From positions 3,324-67,323 of the forward strand of contig JAOUPR010000001.1 in NCBI GenBank assembly GCA_029879725.1: a stretch of 64,000 nt of DNA, in the 5' to 3' direction. A program made the position numbers and the translations under genes. Position 1 is the first letter of the stretch; the number at the start of each line of letters is the position of its first letter. Positions 1,009 through 27,631 of the stretch are shown here, piece after piece. Below the pieces are notes generated by a model, which did not search any database, was not told the DNA's origin, and saw only the letters and a program-made list of their open reading frames with translations. The DNA comes from Gemmatimonadota bacterium. Lineage in GTDB: Bacteria > Gemmatimonadota > Gemmatimonadetes > Longimicrobiales > Gaopeijiaceae.

Positions 1009-3780
1009 ATGACCGATCGCGACACTCCTGCATCCGATCGTGCCTTCGCCAGGACGCGGAGCCGCTGGATGATCGCGATGGTGGCCGTAGCCAGCGCCGT
1101 GACGGGATCCTGGGTGTACACGCGAGTCAGTATCGGTCAGGATGCGCGGGAAGACGTACGCGTCACACTCTCCGCCGTCCTGAACGCGGTTCAGGGAGCT
1201 CTCCACGCATCGTTTCGATCTCATCGCTCCCAGGCCATCGGTTGGGCGACCTTCCCGGCGGTGGTTGAGGCCACACGAGAGCTCCTGGACACCTCCAGAT
1301 CGCCGGAGGAGCTCTCCACCCACCCGGCCCAGACGTCGCTCCGCGATCTCCTCCTTCCCACCCTGGAGGCCACGGGATACCAGGGGTACTTCCTCGTCGA
1401 CGTCGACGGTGTGAACCTCGCCTCGAGCCGGGACGCCAACATCGGGGTCACCACGCTCCTGCGGAGCCGACCCGGATTTCTGGAGAAGGTCTGGTCGGGC
1501 CAGACCGCCGTGAGCATGCCGCAGCCGTCCGACGTCCCGCTTCCGGGCCCGGACGGGGTGCTCCGCTCAGGATATCCCACCCTCTTCGTGGGCGCGCCGG
1601 TGAGGAGTGAGTCGGGTGAAATCGTGGCCGCCTTCGCGTTTCGTCTCGACTTCGATCGTGACTTCGACGATCTCCTGAGGCGGGGCGACGTAGGCCGATC
1701 CGGAGAGACGTACGCCGTGGACGGGGAAGGCCGACTCCTCGGCGCCAGCAGGTTCGAAACCGCCCTCCGTGCGACTCCGTTCTTCGACGATGATCCCCAT
1801 ACACCCCTCGAGATCTACGTACGGAATCCAGGGGTCGAGTTCATGCGCACCCAGGACACCACGGCGGTGAACCTCGGGGAGGCGCAACCCACCCTGGCGG
1901 CGGCCGCCCTCATGAAGAAGGAGGACGGCGAAGACATGACCGGATACCCCAACTACCGGGGCATTCCGGTGGTGGGTTCGTGGAAATGGGACAGCGACCT
2001 CGGAATGGGCCTCACCGTGGAGCAGGACGTCGCGGAGGCATACCGGTCACTCCGCTCCCACAGGATGTGGGTGGACGTGCTCAACGGCATGGTTCTCCTC
2101 CTGGTGTTCGCCACCGGACGCGTCTACCTGGCCAACGCGCGCAGGACCCACGAAATCAGTCAGGAGATGGAGTGGGGCATGTCGGAGGGCGCTCGGGACC
2201 TGGAGCACACCCGGTCGCGCATGGCGACCACGACCCGGGAACTCGAACGCTTCTTCGATCTCTCCATCGACATGGTCTGCATCGCCAGTACCGACGGCTT
2301 CTTCACTCGCGTCAACCCCGCCTTCATCCGCGTCCTCGGCCACGCGGAAGCGGACCTGATGGCACGACCGTTTCTGGACTTCGTACACCCCGACGACGCC
2401 ACGGCGACGCTCCAGGAGGTGGAGAAGCTCGCGGGTGGGGAACCCACCATCTCCTTCTCCAACCGATACCGGTGCGCCGACGGAGCCTGGAAATGGCTCG
2501 AGTGGACCGCGGCCTCCACGCCCGAGGGACTCATCTACGCCATCGCGCGGGACGAGACGGAGCGCCGAGAAACCGAGGCGGTCCTGGCCAACCAGGCCCG
2601 AGAACTCCGGCAGGCTCAGAAGATGGAGGCCGTGGGAAGATTGGCCGGAGGCGTGGCCCACGACTTCAACAATCTCCTTACCGCCATCATCGGGTTCGGC
2701 GAACAGGTGCTGTTCCTCTCGAGTCCCGGTGAGAAGGTCCACCGCCACACGACGCAGATCCTCCGGGCGGCGGGACGGGCGGCGGACCTGACACGGCAAC
2801 TTCTGGCCTTTTCCCGGCTCCAGGTCGTTCGACCCAAGGTCGTGGACGTGAACGAGGTGGTGCACGACGTCACGAAGATGCTGGGCAGGATCATCGGAGA
2901 CGATGTGGGGCTGGAGGTGTCGTCGAACGAGCACCTATGGCCGACCTACATCGACGTGGGCGCCCTCGAGCAGATCGTGGTGAACCTGGCGGTCAATGCC
3001 CGCGACGCGATGGTCGGAGGAGGCGTCATCACCATCAGCACGGACAACGTACGTCTGGACGGATCACGAGACGCCGACACCGGCCGGGAGCTGCCCGACG
3101 GCGACTACGTTCTCCTGTCGGTACGAGATACCGGGACGGGAATGTCCGAAGAGGTCCAGCGGCAGATCTTCGACCCGTTCTTCACCACCAAGGAAGAGGG
3201 GAAGGGCACGGGTCTGGGTCTGTCGACCTGTTTCGGCCTGGTGAAGCAGGCCTCCGGATCCATCGATGTCCGGAGTGAGGAGGGCGTGGGCTCCACCTTC
3301 TCGGTCTACCTTCCCCGTACGAGTCGCGCCGGGACGAGGGATGAGGACAAGGTGCCCGAGAATGCCGTGGCGGGAGGGAGTGAGACGATTCTGGTGGTCG
3401 ACGACGACGTACAGGTCCGCGCCGTCGTGTGCGCCATTCTCGAGACCCACGGATACAGGGTGCTGGAGGCCGCCGGCGGGAGTGAAGCCATCCGCATCAG
3501 TTCGGAGGTCGCCGACGACATCCATCTCCTCCTGACCGACGTGGTCATGAACGGCATCAACGGTGGGAAACTGGCCGAGACGTTGGCCCCTTCCCGCCCG
3601 GAGATGCGGCTGATGTTCATGTCGGGCCATGCCGAAGACGCCATGGTTCACACGGGCGTCATGACCGGCCGCGCGCTCCTCGTGAAGAAGCCGTTCCAGT
3701 CACTGGAGCTGGCGCGTACTGTGCGCGCCTGCCTCGACGGCTCCCGCTATACGGCGCAGGCGTTCTCCCGGGGGAGCTGA
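1009..3780 (+). CDS. Hybrid sensor histidine kinase (TM - periplasmic sensor - TM - PAS - HisKA - HATPase_c - C-terminal REC)
   Basis: 923-aa ORF; two hydrophobic segments flank a ~300-aa periplasmic region; PAS-like block; H-box GVAHDFNNLLTAIIG; G-box DTGTGM / GKGTGLGL; C-terminal receiver ILVVDDDVQVRAVV...LLLTDVVMNGINGGKLAE...LVKKPF. Confidence 0.85.
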   Translation: MTDRDTPASDRAFARTRSRWMIAMVAVASAVTGSWVYTRVSIGQDAREDVRVTLSAVLNAVQGALHASFRSHRSQAIGWATFPAVVEATRELLDTSRSPEELSTHPAQTSLRDLLLPTLEATGYQGYFLVDVDGVNLASSRDANIGVTTLLRSRPGFLEKVWSGQTAVSMPQPSDVPLPGPDGVLRSGYPTLFVGAPVRSESGEIVAAFAFRLDFDRDFDDLLRRGDVGRSGETYAVDGEGRLLGASRFETALRATPFFDDDPHTPLEIYVRNPGVEFMRTQDTTAVNLGEAQPTLAAAALMKKEDGEDMTGYPNYRGIPVVGSWKWDSDLGMGLTVEQDVAEAYRSLRSHRMWVDVLNGMVLLLVFATGRVYLANARRTHEISQEMEWGMSEGARDLEHTRSRMATTTRELERFFDLSIDMVCIASTDGFFTRVNPAFIRVLGHAEADLMARPFLDFVHPDDATATLQEVEKLAGGEPTISFSNRYRCADGAWKWLEWTAASTPEGLIYAIARDETERRETEAVLANQARELRQAQKMEAVGRLAGGVAHDFNNLLTAIIGFGEQVLFLSSPGEKVHRHTTQILRAAGRAADLTRQLLAFSRLQVVRPKVVDVNEVVHDVTKMLGRIIGDDVGLEVSSNEHLWPTYIDVGALEQIVVNLAVNARDAMVGGGVITISTDNVRLDGSRDADTGRELPDGDYVLLSVRDTGTGMSEEVQRQIFDPFFTTKEEGKGTGLGLSTCFGLVKQASGSIDVRSEEGVGSTFSVYLPRTSRAGTRDEDKVPENAVAGGSETILVVDDDVQVRAVVCAILETHGYRVLEAAGGSEAIRISSEVADDIHLLLTDVVMNGINGGKLAETLAPSRPEMRLMFMSGHAEDAMVHTGVMTGRALLVKKPFQSLELARTVRACLDGSRYTAQAFSRGS

Positions 3781-5141: not shown

Positions 5142-6590
5142 TCACCACCTGGAAATGACCACCCGCTGGTCCGTGAAGAAGGAGATGGCGTCCCGGCCCT
5201 GCGCCTTGAGATCGCCGTAGAAGGAAGCCCTCGATCCACCGAAGGGAAAGAACGCCATGGGCGCGGCCACCCCGATGTTCACCCCGATCATGCTGATCCC
5301 CGCCTTGTAGCGGAACTCGCGCGCGGCCTTCCCGCTGGTCGTGAAGATGGAGCACGCGTTCCCATATCGCGTGGTGTGCATCTGCTCGATGGCGTCGTCC
5401 AGCGTCTTCACCCGGCTCAGCCCCGCCACGGGCCCGAAGACCTCCTCCGTACCCAGGGGGGTGTCCATGCGTACCTCGTCGAAGACGGTGGGGCCGATCC
5501 AGTGTCCGCCGGGCATGGTGTCCACCACGTCGTATCGTCCGTCCAGGGCGAGTCTTCCCCCACTCCCGGCGGCCTCGTCGATGAAGGTCTTGACCCGGTC
5601 CCGGTGGGTCGACGAGATCACCGGGCCCATGTCCGTGTCCGGGTCCAGCCCGTCTCCCATGCGCAGGCTCGACGCTCCGTCCAGGATCCGTTCCCGGAGC
5701 GGCTTGTACGCCTCACCCACGCCCACGAGGATGCTCCCCGCGAGGCAGCGCTGCCCGGTGGAGCCGAACACCGAAGCCATGCAGGCATCCGCGGTGTAGT
5801 CCATGTCGGCGTCAGGCATGACGATGAGGTGGTTCTTTGCTCCTCCCAGGGCCTGCACACGCTTTCCCGCCGTGGCCGCCCGCTGGTACACGACCTTCGC
5901 CACGTGGCTCGAGCCCACGAAGGACACGCCCACGATGTCGGGGTGGTCGCAGACGGCCTCCACCGCCTCCTGCCCTCCATGGACCACGTTGAGCACGCCC
6001 GCCGGCAAGCCCACCCGGTCGGCCAGGTCCACGATCTTCTGGTGCGTGAGAGGGTCCTGCTCGCTGGGCTTGAGCACCACCGTGTTCCCCGCGGCCACCG
6101 CGTAGGGCCAGAACCAGAGCGGAATCATCACCGGGAAGTTGTACGGCGTGATGATCCCGAACACGCCCAGGGGCTGTCGGTACGACGCGCAGTCGATCCC
6201 GGGGGCGATGTCCTCCGCCGTGTCGCCCATCATCAGGGTGGGCATTCCGCACGCGTGCTCCACGTTCTCGATCCCGCGCTGCACTTCTCCCCGCGTCTCG
6301 GCGAGGATCTTCCCGTGCTCACGCGAGAGCGAACGCGCCAGCTCCTCCTTGTGCTCCTCCAGGCGCATCTTCAGGCGCATGAGGACGCGCACCCGCTCCA
6401 CGGCCGGGGTCTCCCGCCACGCGGGAAAGGCCTTCCGGGCCGCTTTCACGGCGGCGTCCACGTCGGCACGGGTGGAAAGCGGCGTGCGCCCGATCTCCTC
6501 TCCCGTGGCCGAATTGGTGATCCCTATCGCGTCCTTTCCCGACGACGGGGTCCAGACACCACCGATGTAGTTGTGAACGGTATCGCTCAT
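5142..6590 (-). CDS. mmsA: CoA-acylating methylmalonate/malonate-semialdehyde dehydrogenase
   Basis: ORF 5142..6977 trimmed to MSDTVHNYIGGVWTPSSG (typical MmsA N-terminus; the upstream extension is Arg/Pro-rich junk); ALDH-superfamily motifs, catalytic Cys in FGSTGQRCLAGS; 483 aa. Confidence 0.85.
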   Translation of the reverse strand: MSDTVHNYIGGVWTPSSGKDAIGITNSATGEEIGRTPLSTRADVDAAVKAARKAFPAWRETPAVERVRVLMRLKMRLEEHKEELARSLSREHGKILAETRGEVQRGIENVEHACGMPTLMMGDTAEDIAPGIDCASYRQPLGVFGIITPYNFPVMIPLWFWPYAVAAGNTVVLKPSEQDPLTHQKIVDLADRVGLPAGVLNVVHGGQEAVEAVCDHPDIVGVSFVGSSHVAKVVYQRAATAGKRVQALGGAKNHLIVMPDADMDYTADACMASVFGSTGQRCLAGSILVGVGEAYKPLRERILDGASSLRMGDGLDPDTDMGPVISSTHRDRVKTFIDEAAGSGGRLALDGRYDVVDTMPGGHWIGPTVFDEVRMDTPLGTEEVFGPVAGLSRVKTLDDAIEQMHTTRYGNACSIFTTSGKAAREFRYKAGISMIGVNIGVAAPMAFFPFGGSRASFYGDLKAQGRDAISFFTDQRVVISRW

Positions 6591-6978
6591 GGGCCTTCCC
6601 GGGGGGAGGAGTCGATCGTGCCGAATGGGGCTCAACCTTCGCCTCCGGCGGCGGGACGGCAAGGGGAAGGCGCGAGAGAGGCCGAACATCGCGTGCCGGG
6701 CCGCGCGCGGACTACCCCGGACTCGCCCGATCCTGCTATTTTTTCTTCCTACCCACTGATGTCGGAGCCGTGGCGACGCCCGTCGCCGGCCCCGCCTACC
6801 GCGCGACGCTTCCCGCGCCCGCGGTGCCGCGAGGGTCACGAAGAGTGGAGCCGCCTGCCTCGTTCCGAGGAAGGAAGAGGGACGCCTCAGTGTCCTGCCC
6901 CACCGCCTGTACCAGTTGTCCCCCTTACCGGACCACCGAAGTCGTTTCCAACGGTCCAATCCACACGAGGAGGACACG

Positions 6979-7431
6979 ATGACCGAGCAACAGATCCTGG
7001 ATGTCGTCCGTGATCAACTGGACGCGTTCAACAACGACCAGTGGGCTCGCTGGCGCGAGTTGCACACCCCGAACGCCGAATACGACGAGGTGGGCACCGG
7101 ACGGCGCCTCACCGGGCACGACGAGATCCTCGAGGTGCTGAAGTCGTGGAAGACGGCGTTCCCGGACCTGAAGGGCACCGTCGACCACATCTTCGCCTCC
7201 GAGAACGTGGGCGTGGTCGAGGTGAGCTGGAAAGGCACCCACAAGGGGACGCTGACGCTACCCGTGGGCACGGTTCCTCCCACCAACACCCGGCACACGA
7301 TCCGGGGCGTCATGGTGTGCGAGGTCTCCAGAAACAAGATCACCAAGGCTCGCCATTACTTCGACGCCCTGGAGCTCATGTCGAAGCTGGGCGCGATACC
7401 GGAGATGAAGGCCCGGAAAGCCAAAGCGTGA
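6979..7431 (+). CDS. SnoaL-like / NTF2-fold protein (ester cyclase / ketosteroid isomerase-like)
   Basis: 150-aa ORF from ATG 6979 with GAGGAGGA RBS 4-11 nt upstream; NTF2-like small-enzyme architecture; the supplied ORF began at an upstream TTG. Confidence 0.7.
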   Translation: MTEQQILDVVRDQLDAFNNDQWARWRELHTPNAEYDEVGTGRRLTGHDEILEVLKSWKTAFPDLKGTVDHIFASENVGVVEVSWKGTHKGTLTLPVGTVPPTNTRHTIRGVMVCEVSRNKITKARHYFDALELMSKLGAIPEMKARKAKA

Positions 7432-7571
7432 TCCTCTGGTGATGTGCCACGCGAGGTCTCCGGATCGGGCGCTTCCGCGTCGGTGGGCGGTGCGTCCGGC
7501 CCGGTCCGGAGACCGGCGGCGGTCCCATGGGGTATCGACACATCGTATGCTTTCCAACCGGGAGGGCACGT

Positions 7572-8999
7572 ATGCCCGAGGCACACGACTCCGCTGAACC
7601 CATTCGGTCGGACGACCTCATCGACCTCCTCTCGAGGAAGGTGATCGGACAGCCCTCCGCCATCGAGGTCATCATCCCCTCGATCCAGCTCCACCGGTCG
7701 GGGCTCGCGCCGGAGAGCCGGCCCGTGGGGGTGTTCCTCCTCCTCGGCCCGACCGGAACGGGGAAGACCCGCACGGTGGAGGCGCTGGCGGAGGTCCTCC
7801 ACGGAAGCTCGCACAAGGTACTCCGCATCGACTGCGGCGAATTCCAGAGCGACCACGAGATCGCCAAGCTCATCGGCGCCCCTCCGGGCTACATCGGCCA
7901 CGGCGACTCCAAGCCCAGGCTCACCCAGGGGCACCTGGCGGAGGTGAAGAGCCCCGACTGCGACCTCTCCCTCGTACTCTTCGACGAGATCGAGAAGGCG
8001 GCCCCGGCCATGACGCAGCTCCTCCTGGGCATTCTCGATCGCGCCACCCTCCGCCTGGGAGACGGAACCGAGGTGGACTTCGCTCAGACGCTCATCTTCC
8101 TCACCAGCAATCTCGGGGCCCGGGGGATGATGGACGCGATCAAGCCCAGCATGGGGTTCACGCCGGCCGGATCCAGGACACCGGGTGAACTGAGCACCCA
8201 GCTCGACCAGATCGCCATCCAGGCCGTCCGGAAACACTTTTCACCCGAGTTCGTGAACCGCATCGACCATGTGGTCACGTACCGTCCCCTCGACGCCGAG
8301 TCGGTGGCGGCGATCCTGGACCAGCACATCTTCGAGCTCGAACGGCACGTCCACACTCGTCTGGGAGCGCGATCCTTCGATCTCGACGTGTCGGCCGGAG
8401 CCCGCGCCTTCCTCATCGAGCGGGGGACGAGCCCCGAGTACGGCGCCCGTGAACTCCGCAGGATGGTCCACCGGCACCTCACCCAGCCCCTGGCCGCCCT
8501 GGTCGCCGACGACGCGGTGCACCCGGGCGCGGTGGTCCACGTCGACGTGGCGGAGAGCGGCGATGCCCTGTCGCTGAGACCGGAGGGCGGGGCGGCCCGC
8601 CCGGAGCGGAGGATCGAGAAGGTCCTGGTGGTCGACGACAACGAAGCCATCCTCCGGTGGACGGAGAGGGCGCTACGGAGCCACCGGTACGAAGCGGTGA
8701 CCGCGTCGTCGGTACGGGATGCCGGAAGGGCCATGGCGTCCACCCGGCCCGACGCCGCCGTTCTCGACTACGTGCTCCCGGACGGAGACGGGGTGGCCCT
8801 GGCCATGGAGATCCTGGGCGACCACCCCGACATGGTCGTGGTGCTCATGAGCGGGATGGAGCTGGACGAGGAAGACGAACTCGTGTGCCGGCACCTGGAC
8901 ATCCCCATCCTGACGAAACCGTTCCTGGTGGACGAGTTGGTGGTGCTCCTGGAGTCGCGGGAGGCCGCGGTGCCCCGAGCGCGGTGGCGCACCGCGTGA
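7572..8999 (+). CDS. ClpB/ClpA D2-type AAA+ ATPase (AAA_2 + D2-small domain) fused to a C-terminal response-regulator receiver domain
   Basis: ORF 7527..8999 trimmed to ATG 7572 (GGGAGGG RBS). Walker A FLLLGPTGTGKT, Walker B LVLFDEIEKA, sensor-1 IFLTSN and the ClpB C-terminal small domain (SPEFVNRIDHVVTYRPL...YGARELRRMV). Then a complete REC: VLVVDDNEAI, acceptor Asp in AAVLDYVLPDGDG, VVLMSG, ILTKPF. Confidence 0.8.
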   Translation: MPEAHDSAEPIRSDDLIDLLSRKVIGQPSAIEVIIPSIQLHRSGLAPESRPVGVFLLLGPTGTGKTRTVEALAEVLHGSSHKVLRIDCGEFQSDHEIAKLIGAPPGYIGHGDSKPRLTQGHLAEVKSPDCDLSLVLFDEIEKAAPAMTQLLLGILDRATLRLGDGTEVDFAQTLIFLTSNLGARGMMDAIKPSMGFTPAGSRTPGELSTQLDQIAIQAVRKHFSPEFVNRIDHVVTYRPLDAESVAAILDQHIFELERHVHTRLGARSFDLDVSAGARAFLIERGTSPEYGARELRRMVHRHLTQPLAALVADDAVHPGAVVHVDVAESGDALSLRPEGGAARPERRIEKVLVVDDNEAILRWTERALRSHRYEAVTASSVRDAGRAMASTRPDAAVLDYVLPDGDGVALAMEILGDHPDMVVVLMSGMELDEEDELVCRHLDIPILTKPFLVDELVVLLESREAAVPRARWRTA

Positions 9000-9010
9000 C
9001 GCCGCGAGCC

Positions 9011-11230
9011 CTACATCCGCATCAGGTAGGTGATCTTCATGACCGCGCCGCGGTCCCGGACGTTCCACAGGCGCGTGTCGTCCCCCCGGCCTTCGGTGAA
9101 CACCAGGTAGAGATCGCTCCCCGGCCTGTGGATGAAATTGAGACGCAGGTTCGTGGAGACGGTTCCGTCCAGGCGGTTGTACTGGGCCAGCAGGTTCGTG
9201 GTGAGCCGGGTGGAGAAGGAGTAGGATAAGCGCATGGACGCGATGTCCGCCGAAAGGGATCCGGAGGGCACGTCCACGGCGTTCCACGTATACCCCAGAG
9301 CGAGGGCGACCTGGGGAGACGGAGCCACGTTGAGCGTCCCGCCCACGCTCCCGAGCGTGCCGCCGTAGTAGTTGCTGAACATCCCCATGGACTCCACGTA
9401 CACCCACCGGCTGCGCGCGGTGGAGGCGATCCACCCGATGTGGTCGTTGCGGTACCGGCCGGGATCCACCCACAGGGAATCCAGGAGGTCGACGCCCTCG
9501 TCGATGTCCACCTCCGCCGCGTTCAGGAAGAAGGCGATCTCGTCTCCGCTCTCCCATACGGGGTTGAATCCCGGACCCGCCTGCCAATCCTCCATGCGCC
9601 CGTCCATGGCGGTGACGACGCGGCCACCGAACCACATGTCGATGCGCCGGAGTCCCAGTGCGGTGGGACGCCAACGTCGCCGTCCGTACAGATCGGACCA
9701 GCGCACACCATCGCGCGTGATGAACCCCGCGGCCGCCCGGGCGCTGTCGCTGACCACGAGGTGGCTGGCGATGACCCCCCACCGTTCGCCCTGATAGTTC
9801 ACCCCGGCGCGGTAGGCATGACCGGTCGCCTCCGATCCCGAGGCGAAGGTCGAGGCGGCGAAACCATCCACCACCCACGCCCCTCCCAGGACGAACTGAC
9901 CATCCACCCCGGCGGCCGTGCTCCAGGCCCCCCCGCCCCGGCGATCGGTCACCATGGCCCCGACGTAGTTGCTCTCCCCCACGTCGCGCTTGATCCGGGC
10001 CGCGGAGAAGTTCTCCCTGGGAAGCCCGTAGGCGGAGTCGGTGACGATATCGAGGAACCCCACGGTCTGTGAGCCCACCCTCCCCGTGAGGCGCGTGCCC
10101 GCCAGGATGGGAACCTCGCCTTCGTCTTCGTCGATCCCGATGCGACGGCTGAAGAGCATGAGGAAGGGCGGCGGCTCGTAGGCGTTCCCGGGCACACCGA
10201 ATTCGAACACCCCGGAGTTCTCGAGAAAGAAGTCCCGCTTTTCCGGAACGAAGAGGTCGAACCGGGTCAGGTTGACCTGCTCGTCGTCCACCTCGACCTG
10301 TGCGAAATCCGTGTTCACGGTCACGTCGAGCACGAGGCCGGGACGCAACTCGGTCTTCAGGTCCAGGCCCACCTCCCGCGTCCCCTCAGCCACGAGAACG
10401 CCCGCGTCGTTGGCTTCCTGCCGGCGCCCGCCGAGAAGGAAGGGCTTGGCTTCCAGGTTCAAGCCGGCCCGGGGGAGGTCGGCCAGCCCGGTCAGGTGGC
10501 CGGCCCGGCTGACCCGCTCGAATCCCTCTCCCTCCCGCCCCCAGGACCGCCAGAGGGTTTCTTCGTTCTTCCTCCGGATCACGCGAAACACGTTGATCCC
10601 CCAGGGCTGGTCGAGGGCGCCGTCCGGGTAGCGCAGGGTACGCCAGGGGATGGCCATCTCCGCGCTCCACCCCTGCGGGTGGCGGGTTCCGGCCACCTCC
10701 CAGACGCCGCGCCAGTCCAGGTTCACCTCGCTCCCCTCGTCGGTGAGGAGCGCCTCGAACTCGGCCCCGTTGGGATTGGTGGCGAAGACGACCGCGTTGC
10801 GGTGGTCGTGGAAGGGGTCGAGGAGTACGGCGACGGCGTCGTCCCCCGCGAACTGGAGCTTCCCGGAGAAGCCCTCCACCTGCAGGAGCTTGTCACGCTG
10901 GAGGATCCGCGCCACGACCCGGTCCGGATCGGAATCGTAGGCCATGATCCCGATGTAGAGGGCGTCGTCGTCGTAGACGATGCGCACCTCCGTCCTTTCC
11001 GTGGCGGGCCCACCCTCCTGCGGCTCCCTTTGGCGGAAATCGCCCATCACGGAGGCCCGGCTCCACGCGTCTTCCGAGAGCAGGCCGTCCACCCGGATCA
11101 CGTTGCCGTCCTGGGGGGGAAGGTGATACGCCCGCACCGAGTCGCCGGTGACCTGCGCGCCCGACACCCCCGGCATCATGGAGCAGAGCAGGGCGGCGAC
11201 CAGGAACGGTCCACGATGCGACCTCCTCAT
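9011..11230 (-). CDS. DUF5916-family secreted protein (CBM9-like N-domain plus large beta-rich C-domain; outer-membrane associated)
   Basis: ORF 9011..11269 trimmed to MRRSHRGPFLVAALLCSMMPGVSGAQ (signal peptide); 739 aa; composition and C-terminal ...VMKITYLMRM resemble the DUF5916 hydrolase-like family of Bacteroidota/Gemmatimonadota. Confidence 0.65.
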   Translation of the reverse strand: MRRSHRGPFLVAALLCSMMPGVSGAQVTGDSVRAYHLPPQDGNVIRVDGLLSEDAWSRASVMGDFRQREPQEGGPATERTEVRIVYDDDALYIGIMAYDSDPDRVVARILQRDKLLQVEGFSGKLQFAGDDAVAVLLDPFHDHRNAVVFATNPNGAEFEALLTDEGSEVNLDWRGVWEVAGTRHPQGWSAEMAIPWRTLRYPDGALDQPWGINVFRVIRRKNEETLWRSWGREGEGFERVSRAGHLTGLADLPRAGLNLEAKPFLLGGRRQEANDAGVLVAEGTREVGLDLKTELRPGLVLDVTVNTDFAQVEVDDEQVNLTRFDLFVPEKRDFFLENSGVFEFGVPGNAYEPPPFLMLFSRRIGIDEDEGEVPILAGTRLTGRVGSQTVGFLDIVTDSAYGLPRENFSAARIKRDVGESNYVGAMVTDRRGGGAWSTAAGVDGQFVLGGAWVVDGFAASTFASGSEATGHAYRAGVNYQGERWGVIASHLVVSDSARAAAGFITRDGVRWSDLYGRRRWRPTALGLRRIDMWFGGRVVTAMDGRMEDWQAGPGFNPVWESGDEIAFFLNAAEVDIDEGVDLLDSLWVDPGRYRNDHIGWIASTARSRWVYVESMGMFSNYYGGTLGSVGGTLNVAPSPQVALALGYTWNAVDVPSGSLSADIASMRLSYSFSTRLTTNLLAQYNRLDGTVSTNLRLNFIHRPGSDLYLVFTEGRGDDTRLWNVRDRGAVMKITYLMRM

Positions 11231-18140: not shown

Positions 18141-19232
18141 TCAGTGCGTCCTCATGACCTCGAGGGTATTGGTGAGCACGGCCATGGCGTAGGCCGGATT
18201 GTGGATCCCGTGACTCAGATCCTCCTCGAACATCTGCCAGTTGGCGAACCCGGCCACCACGTCCGCCGGCCACGTGCCGGGAACGGCGTAGTGATCGACA
18301 CCCTGGATCCCGATGCGTTGGAGCTCCGTGGAGATGTCCGCGAGGAGTGTCGTGACCAACGTCTGCACGGTGTTGTGGTCGAAGGTCGTCAGGGGAACCG
18401 TGGTATGGCATCCGGTGCCGTTGCACCCCGCCACGTTCTCCTCCACCGCACCGTGATAGAGGTACGACATCTTCCACGTATGTCCGCCGGCCTGGCTGCC
18501 GAAAGCCTGGGCCATGTGACAGGTGCCGCACACCTCTGGGTTGCTGTCCGGGTCACCATGGACGGTAGGGCCACCGGCGATGACCCGCGATCCCGTGAAC
18601 TCGAACGCGCCCACTCCACCCACGACCTGGGCCTGCGGGCCGTGGTGGAAACCGTACCGGGACGAGGTGAGCGTAACGTCGGCACCCCCCAACTCGGGTA
18701 CGGGGCTGAGCACCCTGCCCTGATGGCACTGAGCGCACAGATTCCCCACGTCCGCCCCGTAGTCCACCGTCCCATGACCGGCGTTCCACAACTCCACGGG
18801 AGCCGTGGTGGTCAGGGCGAAGTCGGCGTCGGTGTAGGTCGTGTGGATCTGATGGCACGTCCGGCAATTGATGGGTGCGGGGTCAACGACGTTGGCGGCC
18901 GTGACCATCGCGCCCGTGGCGATCCGCTCGATGAAGCCCTGGTGGGTGTGACAGGGCGCGCAACTCGTGGTCGACCGCTCGAAATTCCCACCGAGCCTGT
19001 GCTTCGACTCGCCATACTGCACCTGCTTGGCGTACAGCGTCACGTCTTCGGTGTGGCACTGGGTGCAGTTCTCGTTGGCATCCTGTCCGGCCGGACCGGT
19101 CGGTCCGGCGGGGCCCTGGAGTCCCTGGGTGCCTTGTGGCCCGGCGGGCCCCGTCGGCCCCTCCGGGCCTTCGCATCCGGCACCGATGACGAGGGCCCCG
19201 ATGAACAGGAAGGCCCAACTGCGTCGTAACAT
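18141..19232 (-). CDS. Hexa-heme c-type cytochrome lipoprotein with N-terminal collagen-like (Gly-X-Y)10 tether
   Basis: 363 aa; signal peptide ending IGAGC; immediately followed by EGPEGPTGPAGPQGTQGLQGPAGPTGPAGQD (10 consecutive G-X-Y); heme motifs CTQCH, CAPCH, CRTCH, CAQCH, CGTCH plus a CX4CH (CNGTGCH); AGGGAGGG RBS 3 nt before the ATG. Confidence 0.8.
   Translation of the reverse strand: MLRRSWAFLFIGALVIGAGCEGPEGPTGPAGPQGTQGLQGPAGPTGPAGQDANENCTQCHTEDVTLYAKQVQYGESKHRLGGNFERSTTSCAPCHTHQGFIERIATGAMVTAANVVDPAPINCRTCHQIHTTYTDADFALTTTAPVELWNAGHGTVDYGADVGNLCAQCHQGRVLSPVPELGGADVTLTSSRYGFHHGPQAQVVGGVGAFEFTGSRVIAGGPTVHGDPDSNPEVCGTCHMAQAFGSQAGGHTWKMSYLYHGAVEENVAGCNGTGCHTTVPLTTFDHNTVQTLVTTLLADISTELQRIGIQGVDHYAVPGTWPADVVAGFANWQMFEEDLSHGIHNPAYAMAVLTNTLEVMRTH
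19080..19169 (-). repeat. Coding repeat: 10 uninterrupted Gly-X-Y triplets (collagen-like) inside the hexa-heme cytochrome gene
   Basis: Residues 22-51 of the 18141..19232 product; at DNA level an imperfect GGn-CCn 9-nt periodicity. Confidence 0.7.
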
Positions 19233-19490
19233 GTTTCCCTCCCTTGAAGAGTAGATGCTACTCGATCAGTGAGGAGGGTCTCGGCCCGGAATCCGGTAAT
19301 GGCAGGGAGGACAGGGGGAGTATACCGGCCGTCATGGCCGCGGCATGCACCTAATGGTACATTAATGGACGGGAGCGCGCTACCCCGATCTACGTAGTGT
19401 TACGGACCCTTCCCGAGGCACGGGATCCGTGGGATTACCCATCGGCGCACCTACTCCCATTCCCACCAGACCCTCCAGGTCGAAAAGCCC

Positions 19491-21196: not shown

Positions 21197-22624
21197 CTAC
21201 CGTCCCACCACCGAACGGTGGAACGCGTCGTCCATCTCCTCCGACATGAACCGGGCCTCCAGCCTGTAGTGGCAATAGGAGCAGAAGCCGGGGCGGGGCG
21301 GGAGCCCGAAGTCCGGACGTGGCGGCACCGGGACCCCCGCCGCGGAGTAGGCGGCCGCCACTTCTTCGATACTCTGGTCGAGCATCTGGTGGGTGAGGAT
21401 GAGATTGTGGTAGGCGCCGCCCCTGTCCAGCAACCCCAACCGACGGCGGACATCCACCACGACCCCTTCCAGGGCCGAAGCCGGAAGGCGGACGTCCGCC
21501 GCCCCCAGGTACGCTTCCACCAGCGAGATCCGCTCGGCGATCCCCTCCTCCCACCACCGCAGCACGGTGTCGTATTCCCGGCCATGGCACCCCGTGCACG
21601 CGGATCCACTGCCCCGGGTCGCCACCCCGCCCCGGCCGGGCCTCTCGGCCGGCACATGGCACGAGCGGCAGGTCAGACCCTGGGTGAACTTGTGCGAGGG
21701 TGCCGAGAGCGGCATCCCATCCACCAGCCCCAGGAAGAGCCTTTGCGGCTCGGCATGCGTGTCGCGGTGGCACGCGATGCACGTCGCCGGATCGCGAAGG
21801 CCATACCCCAGCTCCACGTCGTGGGCGTGGTCGTGGCAGTCGGTGCAGCGAAGGTCCACGGCGGAGCTCATCGCCTGGATCCGGTGGGTGTCCGCCTCGT
21901 GGCACGTGCCGCACGACACCCCGGTGTGATCCGGATGAAGATCCTCGCCCAGCCCTGCCGCCGTGACGGCGCCGGCATTCGCGTGGCACCGGTCACACCG
22001 CTCCGCCGAAACCTCCCGGCTGGGACGCGACACGTCGAAATGGCACCGTACACATCCGCCCGACACCCAGGGGAGCCCCTGGTGCGGCACCGCGACTCCC
22101 TGACTCGTGGCCCCCTCGAACTCCAGATCCTGATGGCACACGCGGCACTCTTCCCCTCGAACTCCCGCCAGCTCCGACTCGTGGCACAACCCGCACGTCT
22201 CGGCTCCGGCCGTCAGGAGCCCGCCACCCTCCTCGTGGCGATGGCACCCCGCACACTCCACCGCGACCTGAGCCGAGTCACCGTGGGTCACGTGGTGGAA
22301 CTCCACCGTGACCATGGTCAGGCTCGAGCGCGGGGAGCGCCGGTGGCAGTCCCCGGAGACGCACGTCTCGCCCGGGACGGAGCCCCGAGCCCGGTCGGCG
22401 GTCTCGCCCCGATGGCACTCCGAGCAAGAGAGCTCCGCGTGCCCCGCGCCTGCTTCCATCGCGATCCCCGGACCCGACCGGACCTCCGCATCCGCCGGAT
22501 CGGCCTCCCGCGACACCGTGGGGTCGCAGGCCAGAGCCATCAGGGTCGCCGCGGACAGAACGGCGAGCCCACACCTTCGTGAATCGGCCCGGAAGGGCCG
22601 GATCAGCAGAACGTCACTGCCCAT
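21197..22624 (-). CDS. Multi-heme c-type cytochrome (12 CXXCH + 1 CX4CH)
   Basis: ORF 21197..23185 trimmed to Met at 22624 (MGSDVLLIRPFRADSRRCGLAVLSAATLMALACD; signal/lipobox-like); motifs CSECH, CVSGDCH, CAGCH, CGLCH, CRVCH, CVRCH, CDRCH, CGTCH, CTDCH, CIACH, CRSCH, CTGCH, CSYCH; start overlaps upstream cytochrome b gene by 22 nt. Confidence 0.8.
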   Translation of the reverse strand: MGSDVLLIRPFRADSRRCGLAVLSAATLMALACDPTVSREADPADAEVRSGPGIAMEAGAGHAELSCSECHRGETADRARGSVPGETCVSGDCHRRSPRSSLTMVTVEFHHVTHGDSAQVAVECAGCHRHEEGGGLLTAGAETCGLCHESELAGVRGEECRVCHQDLEFEGATSQGVAVPHQGLPWVSGGCVRCHFDVSRPSREVSAERCDRCHANAGAVTAAGLGEDLHPDHTGVSCGTCHEADTHRIQAMSSAVDLRCTDCHDHAHDVELGYGLRDPATCIACHRDTHAEPQRLFLGLVDGMPLSAPSHKFTQGLTCRSCHVPAERPGRGGVATRGSGSACTGCHGREYDTVLRWWEEGIAERISLVEAYLGAADVRLPASALEGVVVDVRRRLGLLDRGGAYHNLILTHQMLDQSIEEVAAAYSAAGVPVPPRPDFGLPPRPGFCSYCHYRLEARFMSEEMDDAFHRSVVGR

Positions 22625-23496
22625 AGGATCATTCCGATGAGGGCGATGCCCACGGCGAGAGCGGTGAATCCGAGGATCGCGGCCACCGTGGTGGCCCACC
22701 GTGACGGCGGCGGGGCGGGCGTGTCGGGGACCTCGTCCAGGGAAGGCGTCCGGTGGAGATTCTCCTTCACGCTCTCCATGACCTCCGGGTGCTCCTCCTC
22801 CATGTACTCGAGTGTGGCCCGCCCGGTGAAGATCACGGTGTCCAGCGGGAACTTCTCCGGCCTCAGGTGCACGTTGAAGAAGTGGACCGTGAAGATGAAT
22901 CCCGCTGCCAGCAGAGCCTCGTCGGCGTGGATGACCGTGGCCACGTTGAACGCCCACCCGGGGAGGAAGGCAGCGAAGAACTCGGGAAACCAGAGGACCA
23001 GCCCGGACCCTCCGATGATGGCCACTCCCCAGAACACGGCGAGGTAGTCGAACTTCTCCATGTAGGACCACCTCCGGAACGCCGGCTTCGGTCCGAAGCC
23101 GAGGAACCACCTGATCTGGTTCCAGAAGTCCACCACGTCCCTGGGCTGCGGCACCATGGAGTCGGGGCCCCAGAAGAGGCTCCACCGATCAGGACTGCGC
23201 ACGAACAACACGGCGACGTACCCGACGTGTGCCCCGAAGTAGAGGAAGGTCACGACGGCACCCACCCTGTGGAGGAAGCCGGCGCTTTCCACTCCTCCCA
23301 ACAGGGCCATGAGGGGCCCGGACCAGAAGGCACACGAGAACCTCAAGGGGAGGCCGGTGATCACCAGGAGGAAGAACGACACGATCACGGCCGCGTGGGT
23401 CCACCGGTGGAAGCGGTTGAAGCGCCACACGAAGGGGCCCCTCCCTCGGGCCGCGGCGTCGAGTGACACCGGGTCCCGCACCCTGCTCCCGTTCAT
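22603..23496 (-). CDS. Di-heme cytochrome b membrane subunit (FdnI/HydC/PhsC-like prokaryotic cytochrome b561)
   Basis: ORF 22603..23814 trimmed to MNGSRVRDP at 23496 (GAGGGAGGA RBS); N-terminal RFNRFHRWTHAAVIVSFFLL motif, 4-5 TM helices with conserved His (FLHRVGAV, TVIHADEALLAAGFIFTVHFFNVH); ATGA overlap with upstream cytochrome c stop. Confidence 0.75.
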   Translation of the reverse strand: MNGSRVRDPVSLDAAARGRGPFVWRFNRFHRWTHAAVIVSFFLLVITGLPLRFSCAFWSGPLMALLGGVESAGFLHRVGAVVTFLYFGAHVGYVAVLFVRSPDRWSLFWGPDSMVPQPRDVVDFWNQIRWFLGFGPKPAFRRWSYMEKFDYLAVFWGVAIIGGSGLVLWFPEFFAAFLPGWAFNVATVIHADEALLAAGFIFTVHFFNVHLRPEKFPLDTVIFTGRATLEYMEEEHPEVMESVKENLHRTPSLDEVPDTPAPPPSRWATTVAAILGFTALAVGIALIGMILWAVTFC

Positions 23497-26047: not shown

Positions 26048-26049
26048 GA

Positions 26050-27492: not shown

Positions 27493-27497
27493 GGCTA

Positions 27498-27610
27498 GCC
27501 GCTTCCGAAGCGGCGTCTCGGCAGGAGGAGGGGAGGGCCCCGTTCGCGTTACAGGTACCCTTCGCGGGAGGCCCCGTTCCTGGCGTATCGGCGCGAATCC
27601 AGGAACGGGG
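27498..27610. promoter_or_regulatory. Two dyad-symmetric elements in the leader of the kinase/regulator/cytochrome operon
   Basis: (i) 17-nt perfect palindrome GCCGCTTC-C-GAAGCGGC at ~27498-27514, 6 nt upstream of the kinase ATG; (ii) 12-bp perfect inverted repeat CCCCGTTCCTGG-N15-CCAGGAACGGGG at ~27572-27610. Candidate regulator-binding sites and/or terminator of the upstream membrane-protein gene. Confidence 0.35.
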
Positions 27611-27631
27611 CGACGCGGCTCGACCGGCGGC

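What the first reader, a model, noticed from the sequence alone, without database searches (positions are those of the whole stretch)
7572..8999. Stand-alone ClpB-D2-type AAA+ ATPase fused to a C-terminal receiver domain
The ORF encodes only the second (D2) nucleotide-binding module of ClpB/ClpA. Walker A/B, sensor-1, the arginine-finger region and the C-terminal small domain are present. The N-domain, D1 and middle domain are absent. A complete REC domain with an intact acidic pocket, acceptor Asp, T/S and K residues is then appended at the C-terminus. A phosphorylation-controlled, ClpB-like ATPase module of this kind is not a described regulator class to my knowledge. It could act as a phospho-regulated unfoldase/adaptor or a ClpP-independent remodeller. 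The window contains orphan kinases (the hybrid HK at 1009-3780) that could feed it.
Basis: partly seen in the sequence, partly recalled or inferred. Interest (0 to 1): 0.6.

Follow-up and report, generated by a model that had tools for sequence, protein, structure and literature searches.

The report
Receiver-controlled single-ring Clp unfoldase
This gene encodes a one-ring Clp-type protein-unfolding motor fused to a two-component receiver domain, and it keeps the short loop that other Clp motors use to dock onto the ClpP protease, so it may be a protease motor switched directly by phosphorylation, a regulator type I found no description of in the papers I could search.

Summary
Window 7572-8999 (+) encodes a 475-aa protein with AAA_2 (50-233), ClpB_D2-small (240-324) and Response_reg (351-459). 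It aligns only to the D2 part of ClpB/ClpA. It is not a frameshift artefact: hundreds of colinear ~480-aa orthologues (53-67% identity) occur in Gemmatimonadota and Acidobacteriota. All catalytic and phospho-acceptor residues are invariant in a 23-sequence alignment.

A ClpP-docking-type loop is present. M194-G195-F196 aligns with the LGF of M. tuberculosis ClpC1 and the IGL region of E. coli ClpA, and ClpB has a gap there. Gly-Phe is invariant in 196 of 196 sequences inside an otherwise variable loop. By the published marker the module is ClpC/ClpA-like, not ClpB-like.

The module belongs to a large clade of stand-alone D2-only ATPases, some on phage contigs. The REC fusion looks like one chromosomal offshoot.

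No kinase, ClpP or other partner gene is conserved nearby. The link to the hybrid kinase at 1009-3780 is unsupported.

Best reading: a phosphorylation-gated single-ring unfoldase that probably feeds ClpP. ClpP docking and the role of the receiver are inferred, not shown. It is a new variant of known kinds, and I found no paper describing it.

The parts
7560..7566 (+). Shine-Dalgarno-like GGGAGGG, 5 nt before the ATG at 7572
   Evidence: Read directly from the sequence
7572..8999 (+). CDS, 475 aa plus stop codon: D2-only Clp AAA+ module fused to a C-terminal receiver
7572..7607 (+). Short variable N-terminal tail (residues 1-12); no N-domain or other substrate/adaptor-binding domain
   Evidence: Variable in sequence and length in alignment A1; pLDDT below 50 for residues 1-9
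7719..8270 (+). AAA+ large (nucleotide-binding) domain, Pfam AAA_2, residues 50-233
   Evidence: the model matches ClpB NBD2 and ClpC D2 structures, Foldseek E about 1e-29
7746..7769 (+). Walker A, GPTGTGKT (residues 59-66)
   Evidence: Invariant in A1; coordinates checked
7887..7898 (+). Pore-1 loop GYIG (residues 106-109, Y107 invariant), followed by a clade-specific insertion of about 7 aa (GHGDSKPRLTQ)
7971..7988 (+). Walker B, LVLFDE (D138-E139 invariant)
8103..8111 (+). Sensor-1, TSN (N180 invariant)
8133..8183 (+). Flexible loop DAIKPSMGFTPAGSRTP (residues 188-204) carrying the hydrophobic-Gly-Phe tripeptide M194-G195-F196 (nt 8151-8159); candidate ClpP-docking loop
   Evidence: Aligns with 'kpvgLGFskgg' of M. 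tuberculosis ClpC1, and T. thermophilus ClpB has a gap there. E. coli ClpA IGL lies in the same segment and E. coli ClpB lacks the motif. G and F are invariant, position 194 is always L/F/M/I/V, and the flanks carry 2-3.4 bits of entropy in 196 sequences. pLDDT is below 50 for residues 193-199
8256..8267 (+). Arg-finger motif NRID (R230)
   Evidence: N229 invariant; R230 conserved in 22 of the 23 sequences in A1
8289..8543 (+). D2-small (lid) domain, residues 240-324, with sensor-2 G291-A292-R293 (nt 8442-8450)
8544..8621 (+). Terminal beta-strands and a short variable linker (residues 325-350) joining the lid domain to REC
8622..8948 (+). Receiver (REC) domain, residues 351-459: acidic pocket D355-D356, acceptor D399 (nt 8766-8768), S427, K449
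   Evidence: Pfam Response_reg E 2e-13; all five residues invariant; pLDDT about 85-95

Best explanation
The gene encodes an orphan response regulator whose output domain is a single-ring Clp/Hsp100 D2-type AAA+ unfoldase. I propose that it assembles into a hexamer and threads substrates through the GYIG pore loops using ATP. It would dock onto the cell's ClpP peptidase through six flexible hydrophobic-Gly-Phe loops on the lower face of the ring, acting as an alternative ClpP partner alongside ClpX/ClpA/ClpC. Phosphorylation of D399 in the C-terminal receiver, by a kinase encoded elsewhere, would switch the motor on or off. By analogy with REC-AAA+ enhancer-binding proteins, the most likely route is control of ring assembly or ATPase competence. 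Shown here: the domain architecture, intact and conserved catalytic, pore-loop and phospho-acceptor residues, the conserved tripeptide at the ClpP-loop position, and a wide, apparently vertical chromosomal distribution in two phyla. Inferred: hexamer formation, ClpP docking, the direction and mechanism of REC control, and the substrates.
For: The architecture and its restriction to D2 come. Motif conservation: Walker A/B, pore-loop Tyr, sensor-1, sensor-2 and the REC D-D-D-S-K residues are invariant across 23 diverse orthologues, and the Arg finger R230 is conserved in 22 of 23. The MGF tripeptide aligns with ClpC1 LGF, and ClpB has a gap of about 12 residues there. E. coli ClpA IGL lies in the same segment, and ClpX IGF lies at a comparable distance before the PEFxxR motif (sequence printed). 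Hydrophobic-Gly-Phe is present in 198 of 198 family sequences scanned. In 196 sequences, Gly and Phe have zero entropy inside a loop whose other positions carry 2-3.4 bits, which points to selection on the motif itself. The loop is predicted to be disordered, as the 'flexible peptidase-binding loops' are described in PMC7707817. PMC10149685 states that LGF-loop presence or absence is a sequence marker separating ClpP-partner ClpC from ClpB. The fold matches D2 of ClpC in ClpC-ClpP complexes as well as it matches ClpB NBD2. Chromosomal contexts look like ordinary cellular genes, and gene order is conserved within lineages. Precedents: REC domains regulate AAA+ activity in bEBPs (PMC7175178), and RssB, an atypical response-regulator-family adaptor, controls ClpXP delivery of sigma-S (PMC7226468).
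Against: No clpP gene lies in the 64-kb window or in the flanks of about 130 related loci, and the 80 viral loci also lack one. There is therefore no genomic link to ClpP, although clpA and clpC are usually unlinked from clpP as well (my own knowledge). Docking is inferred from a three-residue motif plus its position; no complex could be modelled. Sequence scores do not place the module closer to ClpC/ClpA than to ClpB: the ClpB HMM gives 232 bits against 211 for ClpA, and PDB ClpB gives 195 against 182 for ClpC1. No cognate kinase is conserved nearby. The REC sits at the C-terminus, unlike in bEBPs, so the assembly-control analogy is loose. Whether an isolated D2 ring hexamerises is unknown.
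Confidence: 0.45

Rival explanations
1. It is a ClpP-independent, phosphorylation-controlled remodeller or disaggregase: a single D2-type ring that unfolds or disassembles target proteins without degrading them, as human CLPB/Skd3 does with its single D2-type ring. On this reading the conserved Gly-Phe loop serves another contact, such as inter-subunit packing, REC docking or an unknown partner.
For: The best HMM and PDB sequence scores are to ClpB D2. A single D2-type ring acting as a stand-alone disaggregase has a precedent in human CLPB (PMC9934407). No ClpP linkage was found. ClpI subtypes show that Clp unfoldase lineages can exist with or without ClpP coupling (PMC10149685).
Against: The tripeptide sits exactly where ClpC1 LGF and ClpA IGL sit, in an insertion that ClpB lacks. 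It is invariant in 196 sequences within a hypervariable, disordered loop. ClpB's M-domain, through which it works with DnaK (my own knowledge), is absent.
Confidence: 0.3
2. The receiver does not work as a kinase-driven switch. Instead it acts as a built-in adaptor or substrate-docking module, or as a small-molecule or nucleotide-responsive switch independent of histidine kinases. It would recruit specific clients or partners to the motor, like a covalently attached RssB- or CpdR-type adaptor.
For: No histidine kinase is conserved next to the gene in any lineage examined. RssB, an atypical response-regulator-family protein, acts as a ClpXP adaptor (PMC7226468), and CpdR is a ClpXP adaptor for CtrA degradation (PMC8119881). 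Kinase-independent receiver domains have been proposed in conflict systems (PMC8195603). The protein has no N-domain for substrate or adaptor binding.
Against: All five residues needed for phosphotransfer chemistry (D355, D356, D399, S427, K449) are invariant across two phyla. That is expected for a true phospho-acceptor and is often relaxed in pseudo-receivers (my own knowledge). Orphan response regulators fed by distant kinases are common (my own knowledge). This reading also overlaps with the best explanation, since phosphorylation could gate adaptor function.
Confidence: 0.12
3. It is a domesticated phage or conflict-system module: an immunity or abortive-infection type effector whose AAA+ ring is triggered by signalling.
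For: The closest non-REC relatives include stand-alone D2-only ATPases on phage-like contigs, and some of these carry inteins. One REC-bearing relative has an N-terminal TIR domain and lies near an nSTAND1-WD40 giant gene.
Against: PADLOC gives only weak, generic AAA-region hits (67 bits or less, partial). The gene sits among ordinary cellular genes (cspA-infA-wecB, ribonucleotide reductase, SufE, metabolic enzymes). Gene order is conserved across about 30 loci in one lineage, with no neighbouring effector or mobile-element genes. G+C content matches the surrounding sequence. None of the best 80 viral-contig matches carries the REC.
Confidence: 0.08

Closest known systems
D2 ring of ClpC / ClpC1 and ClpA (class-I Clp/Hsp100 partners of ClpP)
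   Same: Same D2 fold. It has the GYVG-type pore loop, Walker A/B, sensor-1, sensor-2, Arg finger and D2-small lid. A hydrophobic-Gly-Phe tripeptide sits in a flexible loop between sensor-1 and the Arg-finger helix, aligned to ClpC1 LGF and ClpA IGL.
   Different: It has one ring instead of two, and no N-domain, D1 or M-domain. It carries a clade-specific insertion of about 7 aa after the pore loop, DCGEFQ in place of DMSEY/F, and a 4-aa insertion in the lid. It also has a C-terminal REC domain. ClpP binding is untested.
ClpB / Hsp104 NBD2, and human CLPB (Skd3) as a single-ring D2-type disaggregase
   Same: These give the highest HMM and PDB sequence scores. Skd3 shows that a lone D2-type ring can be a working machine (PMC9934407).
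   Different: ClpB has no LGF-type loop (PMC10149685). The M-domain is absent here, as is the ankyrin domain of Skd3. Neither ClpB nor Skd3 carries a receiver.
ClpX (single-ring ClpP partner)
   Same: One AAA+ ring, an IGF loop upstream of a PEFxxR motif, and a D2-small-type lid. Its substrate delivery is controlled by the adaptors RssB and CpdR (PMC7226468, PMC8119881; that CpdR is a single-domain response regulator is my own knowledge).
   Different: It is only a distant sequence relative: the NCBIfam ClpX model scores 34 bits on residues 193-316. ClpX has a zinc-binding N-domain and is regulated in trans. Here the receiver is fused in cis.
NtrC-family enhancer-binding proteins (REC + AAA+)
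   Same: A response-regulator receiver is covalently linked to a ring-forming AAA+ ATPase, and phosphorylation activates the ATPase (PMC7175178). The window itself encodes a classical one at 24695-26392.
   Different: It belongs to a different AAA+ clade. The Sigma54_activat match is only 24.8 bits over a partial stretch. There is no HTH_8 domain. REC is C-terminal rather than N-terminal. The likely target is a protein substrate or peptidase, not sigma-54 RNA polymerase.
Stand-alone D2-only Clp-like ATPases (unnamed clade, about 320-400 aa; some on phage contigs)
   Same: These are the closest relatives of the AAA+ module, at 40-52% identity. They share the signatures DCGEFQ and GY(L/I)GH(R/G)ExxP, the hydrophobic-Gly-aromatic loop and the lid insertion. 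In a rough neighbour-joining tree the REC-fused proteins nest inside this radiation.
   Different: They have no receiver. Four of five contexts inspected, plus 8 IMG/VR contigs, are viral, whereas the REC-fused form is chromosomal.
ClpI (Actinomycetota)
   Same: It is a Clp unfoldase class defined recently by bioinformatics, roughly equidistant from ClpB and ClpC. Its predicted role was assigned from the presence or absence of the LGF loop (PMC10149685), which is the same logic used here.
   Different: ClpI is a two-ring enzyme with an N-terminal domain and an M-domain. It is restricted to Actinomycetota and has no receiver.

Membership tests
Clp/Hsp100 class-I D2 AAA+ module | AAA_2 large domain plus D2-small lid, with Walker A, Walker B, sensor-1, Arg finger and sensor-2 (GAR) | tested here: met
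   Pfam AAA_2 124 bits and ClpB_D2-small 55 bits, both above their cut-offs. All motifs are present and conserved. The fold matches ClpB NBD2 and ClpC D2.
Clp/Hsp100 class-I D2 AAA+ module | Substrate-threading pore-1 loop with an aromatic-hydrophobic pair (GYVG type) | tested here: met
   GAPPGYIGH; Y107 is invariant.
ClpB (disaggregase, equivalog TIGR03346) | Full-length two-ring protein with N-domain, D1 and a long coiled-coil M-domain | tested here: not met
   Only model positions 561-848 of 853 are matched. The score is 232 bits against a cut-off of 1232.
ClpB (disaggregase, equivalog TIGR03346) | Absence of an LGF/IGF-type ClpP loop | tested here: not met
   MGF is present within an insertion of about 12 aa that T. 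thermophilus and E. coli ClpB lack. The criterion is taken from PMC10149685.
ClpP-partner unfoldases (ClpA, ClpC, ClpE, ClpX) | [LIVMF]-G-[FL] tripeptide in a flexible loop on the ClpP-facing side, between sensor-1 and the Arg-finger helix | tested here: met
   M194-G195-F196 aligns to ClpC1 LGF and lies in the ClpA IGL segment. G and F are invariant in 196 of 196 sequences. The loop is predicted to be disordered.
ClpP-partner unfoldases (ClpA, ClpC, ClpE, ClpX) | Physical docking to ClpP and ATP-dependent substrate delivery | not testable with these tools
   No multimer modelling or biochemistry was available. No clpP gene was found in the window or in related loci.
ClpA / ClpC proper | Two AAA+ rings plus an adaptor-binding N-domain | tested here: not met
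   The ClpA model matches only positions 450-733 of 734. The score is 211 bits against a cut-off of 993.
Two-component response regulator (phospho-accepting REC) | Receiver fold with acidic pocket (DD), acceptor Asp, conserved Thr/Ser and Lys | tested here: met
   Response_reg scores 50.8 bits against a cut-off of 30.2. D355, D356, D399, S427 and K449 are invariant. The (beta-alpha)5 pattern has pLDDT of about 85-95.
Two-component response regulator (phospho-accepting REC) | A cognate histidine kinase or phosphorelay partner | tested here: inconclusive
   No kinase is conserved next to orthologues. Kinases do exist in the window at 1009-3780 and 26053-27639. The protein looks like an orphan response regulator.
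NtrC-type bacterial enhancer-binding protein | Sigma54_activat AAA+ domain (GAFTGA loop) and usually a C-terminal HTH_8 | tested here: not met
   Sigma54_activat gives only 24.8 bits over a partial stretch that overlaps the much stronger AAA_2 hit, and there is no HTH_8. The true bEBP in the window scores 218 bits.
Known anti-phage defence systems (PADLOC) | A full-length match to a defence-system protein model, with system partner genes nearby | tested here: not met
   Only partial AAA-region hits were found (PDC-M37B 67 bits, DolB 45 bits). No partner genes lie in the neighbourhood.

The most novel reading that the evidence does not exclude
Gemmatimonadota and Acidobacteriota possess a dedicated, previously unrecognised ClpP partner: a minimal one-ring unfoldase whose activity is gated in cis by two-component phosphorylation. 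A sensor kinase could then switch on degradation of a specific set of proteins directly, without transcription or separate adaptors. The motor would descend from a widespread clade of phage-associated single-ring Clp ATPases that may exploit host ClpP.
Probability: 0.4. Interest if true: 0.75.

Novelty: new variant of a known kind. Interest (0 to 1): 0.6.

Why it matters
Signal-controlled proteolysis in bacteria is known to work through separate adaptor proteins. Examples are RssB and CpdR, which act on ClpXP.

A receiver fused directly to a Clp unfoldase would be the most direct wiring yet between a two-component pathway and a protein-destruction or remodelling machine. It also links REC domains and Clp ATPases in a single polypeptide.

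The protein is small, has one ring and carries no accessory domains. That makes it a tractable model for two questions: how a regulatory domain gates an AAA+ ring, and what the minimal ClpP partner looks like.

The family is common in two abundant but poorly studied soil phyla. Its relatives on phage contigs hint that viruses may bring their own single-ring motors to the host ClpP.

If ClpP docking fails, the protein would still be a phosphorylation-controlled stand-alone unfoldase, and I found no description of that either.

Tried and rejected
- **Frameshift or merged-gene artefact: rejected.** Hundreds of colinear full-length orthologues exist.
- **Alternative start at 7527: disfavoured.** It has no Shine-Dalgarno sequence, and orthologue N-termini fit the 7572 start.
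- **NtrC-type enhancer-binding protein: rejected**.
- **Known defence system: rejected.** PADLOC gives only weak, partial AAA-region hits.
- **Conserved operon partner: none found.**
  - Seven REC-fused contexts from four lineages were inspected, plus the TIR variant.
  - All-against-all clustering of flanking ORFs over 67 loci found only lineage-specific gene orders. These are cspA-infA-wecB upstream in the group at about 53-57% identity, and SnoaL upstream in one Gemmatimonadales lineage.
- **ClpP nearby: none.** tblastn with E. coli ClpP against the window and all loci found nothing.
- **Hybrid kinase 1009-3780 as partner: no support.** It is not syntenic with any orthologue.
- **Placement relative to ClpB and ClpC by score: inconclusive**. 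The neighbour-joining tree is crude. It has only E. coli ClpA and ClpB as named outgroups and no ClpC.
- **GenBank phage collection.** It holds only generic Clp matches at 40% identity or less, many from unannotated or contaminated records. The jumbo-phage hit is a two-ring, ClpA-like protein of 736 aa.
- **IMG/VR.** Most viral relatives are two-ring proteins bearing IGF; only 8 of 77 are stand-alone.
- **Genome-contig scan.** The single-protein query returned only 3 true loci, all from metagenome-assembled genomes, so no cultured host was identified. Source names are generic: 'AAA family ATPase' and 'CheY-like chemotaxis protein/ClpA'.
- **Promoter/terminator and Rfam scans of 6500-9500: nothing**.
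- **afdb50 fold library: unavailable**.
- **Literature.** Six searches found no description of an AAA_2 + D2-small + REC protein. The library is incomplete, so an earlier mention in a response-regulator census cannot be excluded.
Full report
**What is there**

The window carries an ORF at 7527..8999 on the + strand. The ATG at 7572 is preceded by GGGAGGG at 7560-7566, 5 nt upstream. Starting there gives a 475-aa product whose N-terminus matches the length of its orthologues.

Pfam finds three domains above their curated cut-offs:
- AAA_2, residues 50-233, E 6e-36
- ClpB_D2-small, residues 240-324, E 9e-15
- Response_reg, residues 351-459, E 2e-13

NCBIfam aligns residues 18-329 to positions 561-848 of the 853-position ClpB model and to 450-733 of the 734-position ClpA model. 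The scores are far below the equivalog cut-offs. Only the second AAA+ module is therefore present. There is no N-domain, D1 or M-domain.

An AlphaFold2 model has mean pLDDT 83.5. Its AAA+ part matches ClpB NBD2 crystal structures and the D2 of ClpC/ClpC1 in ClpP complexes about equally well, with Foldseek E about 1e-29.

**Is it real and conserved?**

Yes. A search of 5.8 billion proteins returned more than 100 listed homologues of 450-500 aa. They have 57-67% identity and 94-100% coverage, and all carry the same three Pfam domains. Where sources give a name, it is 'AAA family ATPase' from Gemmatimonadota or Longimicrobiales metagenome-assembled genomes, or 'CheY-like/ClpA'. A 100%-identical partial copy comes from a Gemmatimonadota genome bin, which identifies the phylum of the window.

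A second group, 53% identical, has 240 cluster members including an Acidobacteriota genome bin. Eighty further full-length loci at 51-60% identity were recovered from metagenomes.

The alignment is colinear through the linker, so a frameshift fusion is excluded. In that 23-sequence alignment the following are invariant:
- Walker A G59-T66
- pore-loop Y107
- Walker B D138-E139
- sensor-1 N180
- sensor-2 G291-A292-R293
- REC residues D355, D356, D399, S427, K449

The Arg finger R230 is conserved in 22 of the 23 sequences. G+C content matches the surroundings. The neighbouring genes are ordinary chromosomal genes.

**The key correction**

It is present.

Between sensor-1 (TSN, 178-180) and the Arg-finger motif (NRID, 229-232) the protein has the loop DAIKPSMGFTPAGSRTP. 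phmmer against PDB sequences aligns 'ikp.sMGFtpag' with 'skpvgLGFskgg' of M. tuberculosis ClpC1. T. thermophilus ClpB shows a gap of about 12 residues there. In a MAFFT alignment with the E. coli proteins, the IGL of ClpA falls in the same segment and ClpB has no such tripeptide. In ClpX, IGF lies at a comparable distance before PEFIGR (sequence printed).

Across the family the motif is LGF, MGF, IGF, VGF or FGF in 198 of 198 sequences scanned. In 196 non-identical sequences the Gly and Phe have zero entropy. The preceding residue is always L, F, M, I or V. Most other loop positions carry 2-3.4 bits of entropy.

The model predicts residues 193-199 to be disordered. [quoted passage not shown] The ClpI study states that ClpB lacks LGF loops and that their presence or absence is a useful sequence marker separating ClpC from ClpB (PMC10149685). 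By that marker this module is ClpC/ClpA-like, not ClpB-like, even though overall scores to ClpB and ClpC are nearly equal.

**Where the module comes from**

An exhaustive HMMER search of 1.84 billion cluster representatives was run. Apart from REC-bearing orthologues, the best hits are not classical ClpB, ClpA or ClpC. They are a diverse set of stand-alone D2-only proteins of about 320-400 aa, 40-52% identical to the query.

These share family-specific signatures with the query:
- DCGEFQ instead of DMSEY/F
- an insertion of about 7 aa after the pore loop (GY(L/I)GH(R/G)ExxP)
- a 4-aa lid insertion
- in most cases a hydrophobic-Gly-Phe/Leu/Tyr loop

In a crude neighbour-joining tree the REC-bearing proteins form one group nested at the tip of this radiation. 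E. coli ClpA, E. coli ClpB and the proteins longer than 900 aa fall outside it. That tree has no ClpC, so it cannot say whether the clade sits closer to ClpC or to ClpB.

Four of five stand-alone contexts inspected are phage-like contigs: many small unidirectional ORFans, a primase-helicase, a DEAD-box helicase, a P22-like protein and DUF932. The fifth is bacterial.

In IMG/VR, 8 viral contigs carry such stand-alone proteins with the same signatures. None of the best 80 viral matches includes the REC.

Rare variants exist. One has an N-terminal TIR domain plus REC, and several carry inteins in the AAA domain.

**Genomic context**

In the window the gene follows a SnoaL-like gene by 140 bp. It converges on a DUF5916 gene 12 nt downstream.

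The SnoaL neighbour recurs only in the 67%-identical Gemmatimonadales lineage. Other contexts are:
- another Gemmatimonadota-type lineage: ribonucleotide reductase and SufE
- another Gemmatimonadota-type lineage: metallo-beta-lactamase-fold and luciferase-like genes
- the group at about 53-57% identity, which includes the Acidobacteriota-type cluster: cspA-infA-wecB upstream and Methyltransf_33 and Ysc84 downstream, with the upstream genes each recurring in about 17-30 of 67 loci

No gene is conserved across lineages. No histidine kinase is adjacent in the REC-fused loci examined. No clpP occurs in the window or in about 130 loci.

The hybrid kinase at 1009-3780 is real, with dCache-PAS-HisKA-HATPase-REC domains. 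It is separated from the gene by two opposite-strand metabolic genes plus SnoaL, and it is never syntenic with an orthologue. The protein is therefore an orphan response regulator. The conserved within-lineage gene order among ordinary cellular genes argues for a core cellular role rather than a mobile or defence role. PADLOC gives only weak generic AAA hits.

**Most likely mechanism**

Shown here:
- an intact ATP-binding and hydrolysis site, and a threading pore loop
- a phosphorylatable receiver
- a ClpP-loop-type tripeptide under strong selection

Inferred:
- The protein forms a hexameric ring, threads substrates, and docks on the housekeeping ClpP through the MGF loops. It would thus act as an alternative minimal ClpP partner.
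- Phosphorylation of D399 by a distant kinase gates the motor. The most plausible route is control of ring assembly or ATPase competence, as receiver domains do for the AAA+ ring of NtrC-type activators (PMC7175178).
- A C-terminal attachment to the lid should place the receivers on the ring periphery, compatible with ClpP docking. This rests on my own knowledge of ClpX and ClpA C-terminal fusions and was not tested here.

I put about 0.75 on 'active, REC-regulated unfoldase', about 0.5 on ClpP coupling, and 0.45 on the combined statement.

**Rivals**

- A ClpP-independent remodeller, like the single-ring human CLPB (PMC9934407): 0.3.
- The REC as a built-in adaptor or kinase-independent switch, following RssB/CpdR-style logic (PMC7226468, PMC8119881, PMC8195603): 0.12.
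- A domesticated phage or conflict module: 0.08.

**Comparison with what is known, and novelty**

The protein works like a ClpX- or ClpC-D2-type motor. It is built like a response regulator with an AAA+ output. It is not a member of ClpB, ClpA, ClpC, ClpX or the bEBPs by their defining features (see the membership table).

Six full-text searches found no paper describing this architecture. Databases carry it only under generic automatic names.

I rate it a new variant of known kinds. It is interesting because it would wire two-component signalling directly into an unfoldase or protease. It is also a small, tractable system found in two abundant soil phyla.

**Limits**

ClpP docking, hexamer formation, the sign of the regulation, the kinase and the substrates are all unproven. 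The literature library is incomplete. No cultured carrier was identified.

Noticed in passing
Loci L048 (6001-7068), L054 (5619-6644), L055 (7498-8535), L139 (5181-6215); IMG/VR loci L141-L146, L148, L170: There is a large, apparently unnamed clade of stand-alone, single-ring D2-only Clp-like ATPases of about 320-415 aa. They carry the signatures DCGEFQ and GYLGHRETxP and a hydrophobic-Gly-Phe/Tyr loop. Some sit on phage-like or IMG/VR viral contigs among replication or early genes, with no ClpP within about 6-8 kb. They may be phage-encoded partners for host ClpP.
   Followed up: partly
Proteins P0133, P0149, P0168, P0177 (relatives): Several members of the stand-alone clade carry inteins (Hint plus LAGLIDADG homing endonuclease) inserted in the AAA+ domain.
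   Followed up: no
L137 7575-9407 (protein P0126, contig CAKYSG010000222.1): This is a 610-aa variant with an N-terminal TIR_2 domain ahead of the same AAA_2 + D2-small + REC core. It lies a few kb from a giant DUF4062-nSTAND1-WD40 gene, a conflict-system-like setting unlike the housekeeping contexts of the main family.
   Followed up: partly
L045 8209-11449 and about 30 metagenome loci among L056-L135: In the group at about 53-57% identity, which includes the Acidobacteriota-type cluster, the gene follows a conserved same-strand run of cold-shock protein (CSD), IF-1 (infA) and UDP-GlcNAc 2-epimerase (wecB). It is followed by a convergent Methyltransf_33 gene and then Ysc84. This may hint at a stress or translation link, or may just be lineage synteny.
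   Followed up: partly
L138 253-4879 (protein P0170): One bacterial stand-alone D2-only relative is flanked by a GAF-PAS-HATPase protein upstream and a VWA-domain protein downstream. The arrangement is reminiscent of MoxR-VWA pairs and of kinase-linked regulation in trans.
   Followed up: no
window 6976-7431 (+): A SnoaL-like (polyketide-cyclase fold) gene lies 140 bp upstream on the same strand and may be co-transcribed. The same arrangement occurs in the 67%-identical Gemmatimonadales orthologue locus (L037 9314-9760) but in no other lineage.
   Followed up: yes
window 24695-27639 (-): This is a classical HisKA-HATPase kinase plus an NtrC-type REC-Sigma54_activat-HTH_8 regulator pair. It serves as an in-window contrast to the Clp-type REC-AAA+ protein. 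It also shows that the genome has further kinases besides the hybrid kinase at 1009-3780.
   Followed up: no
window 1009-3780 (+): This is a hybrid sensor kinase with dCache_1, PAS, HisKA, HATPase_c and a C-terminal REC. As a hybrid kinase it would need an Hpt relay to reach any terminal response regulator. I did not look for an Hpt protein.
   Followed up: partly
IMG/VR loci L147, L149-L220 (for example L153, L161): Most viral-contig relatives (69 of 77) are two-ring, ClpA/ClpC-like proteins of about 750 aa with an IGF loop. No ClpP homologue lies within 6 kb on either side. Phage-encoded ClpP-type unfoldases therefore seem common in uncultured viruses.
   Followed up: no
window 18144-19265 (-) and 22606-23886 (-): A putative multihaem cytochrome (weak Cytochrome_C7 and MtrC-like hits) and a cytochrome b561-like membrane protein. 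Both hits are below the curated cut-offs.
   Followed up: no
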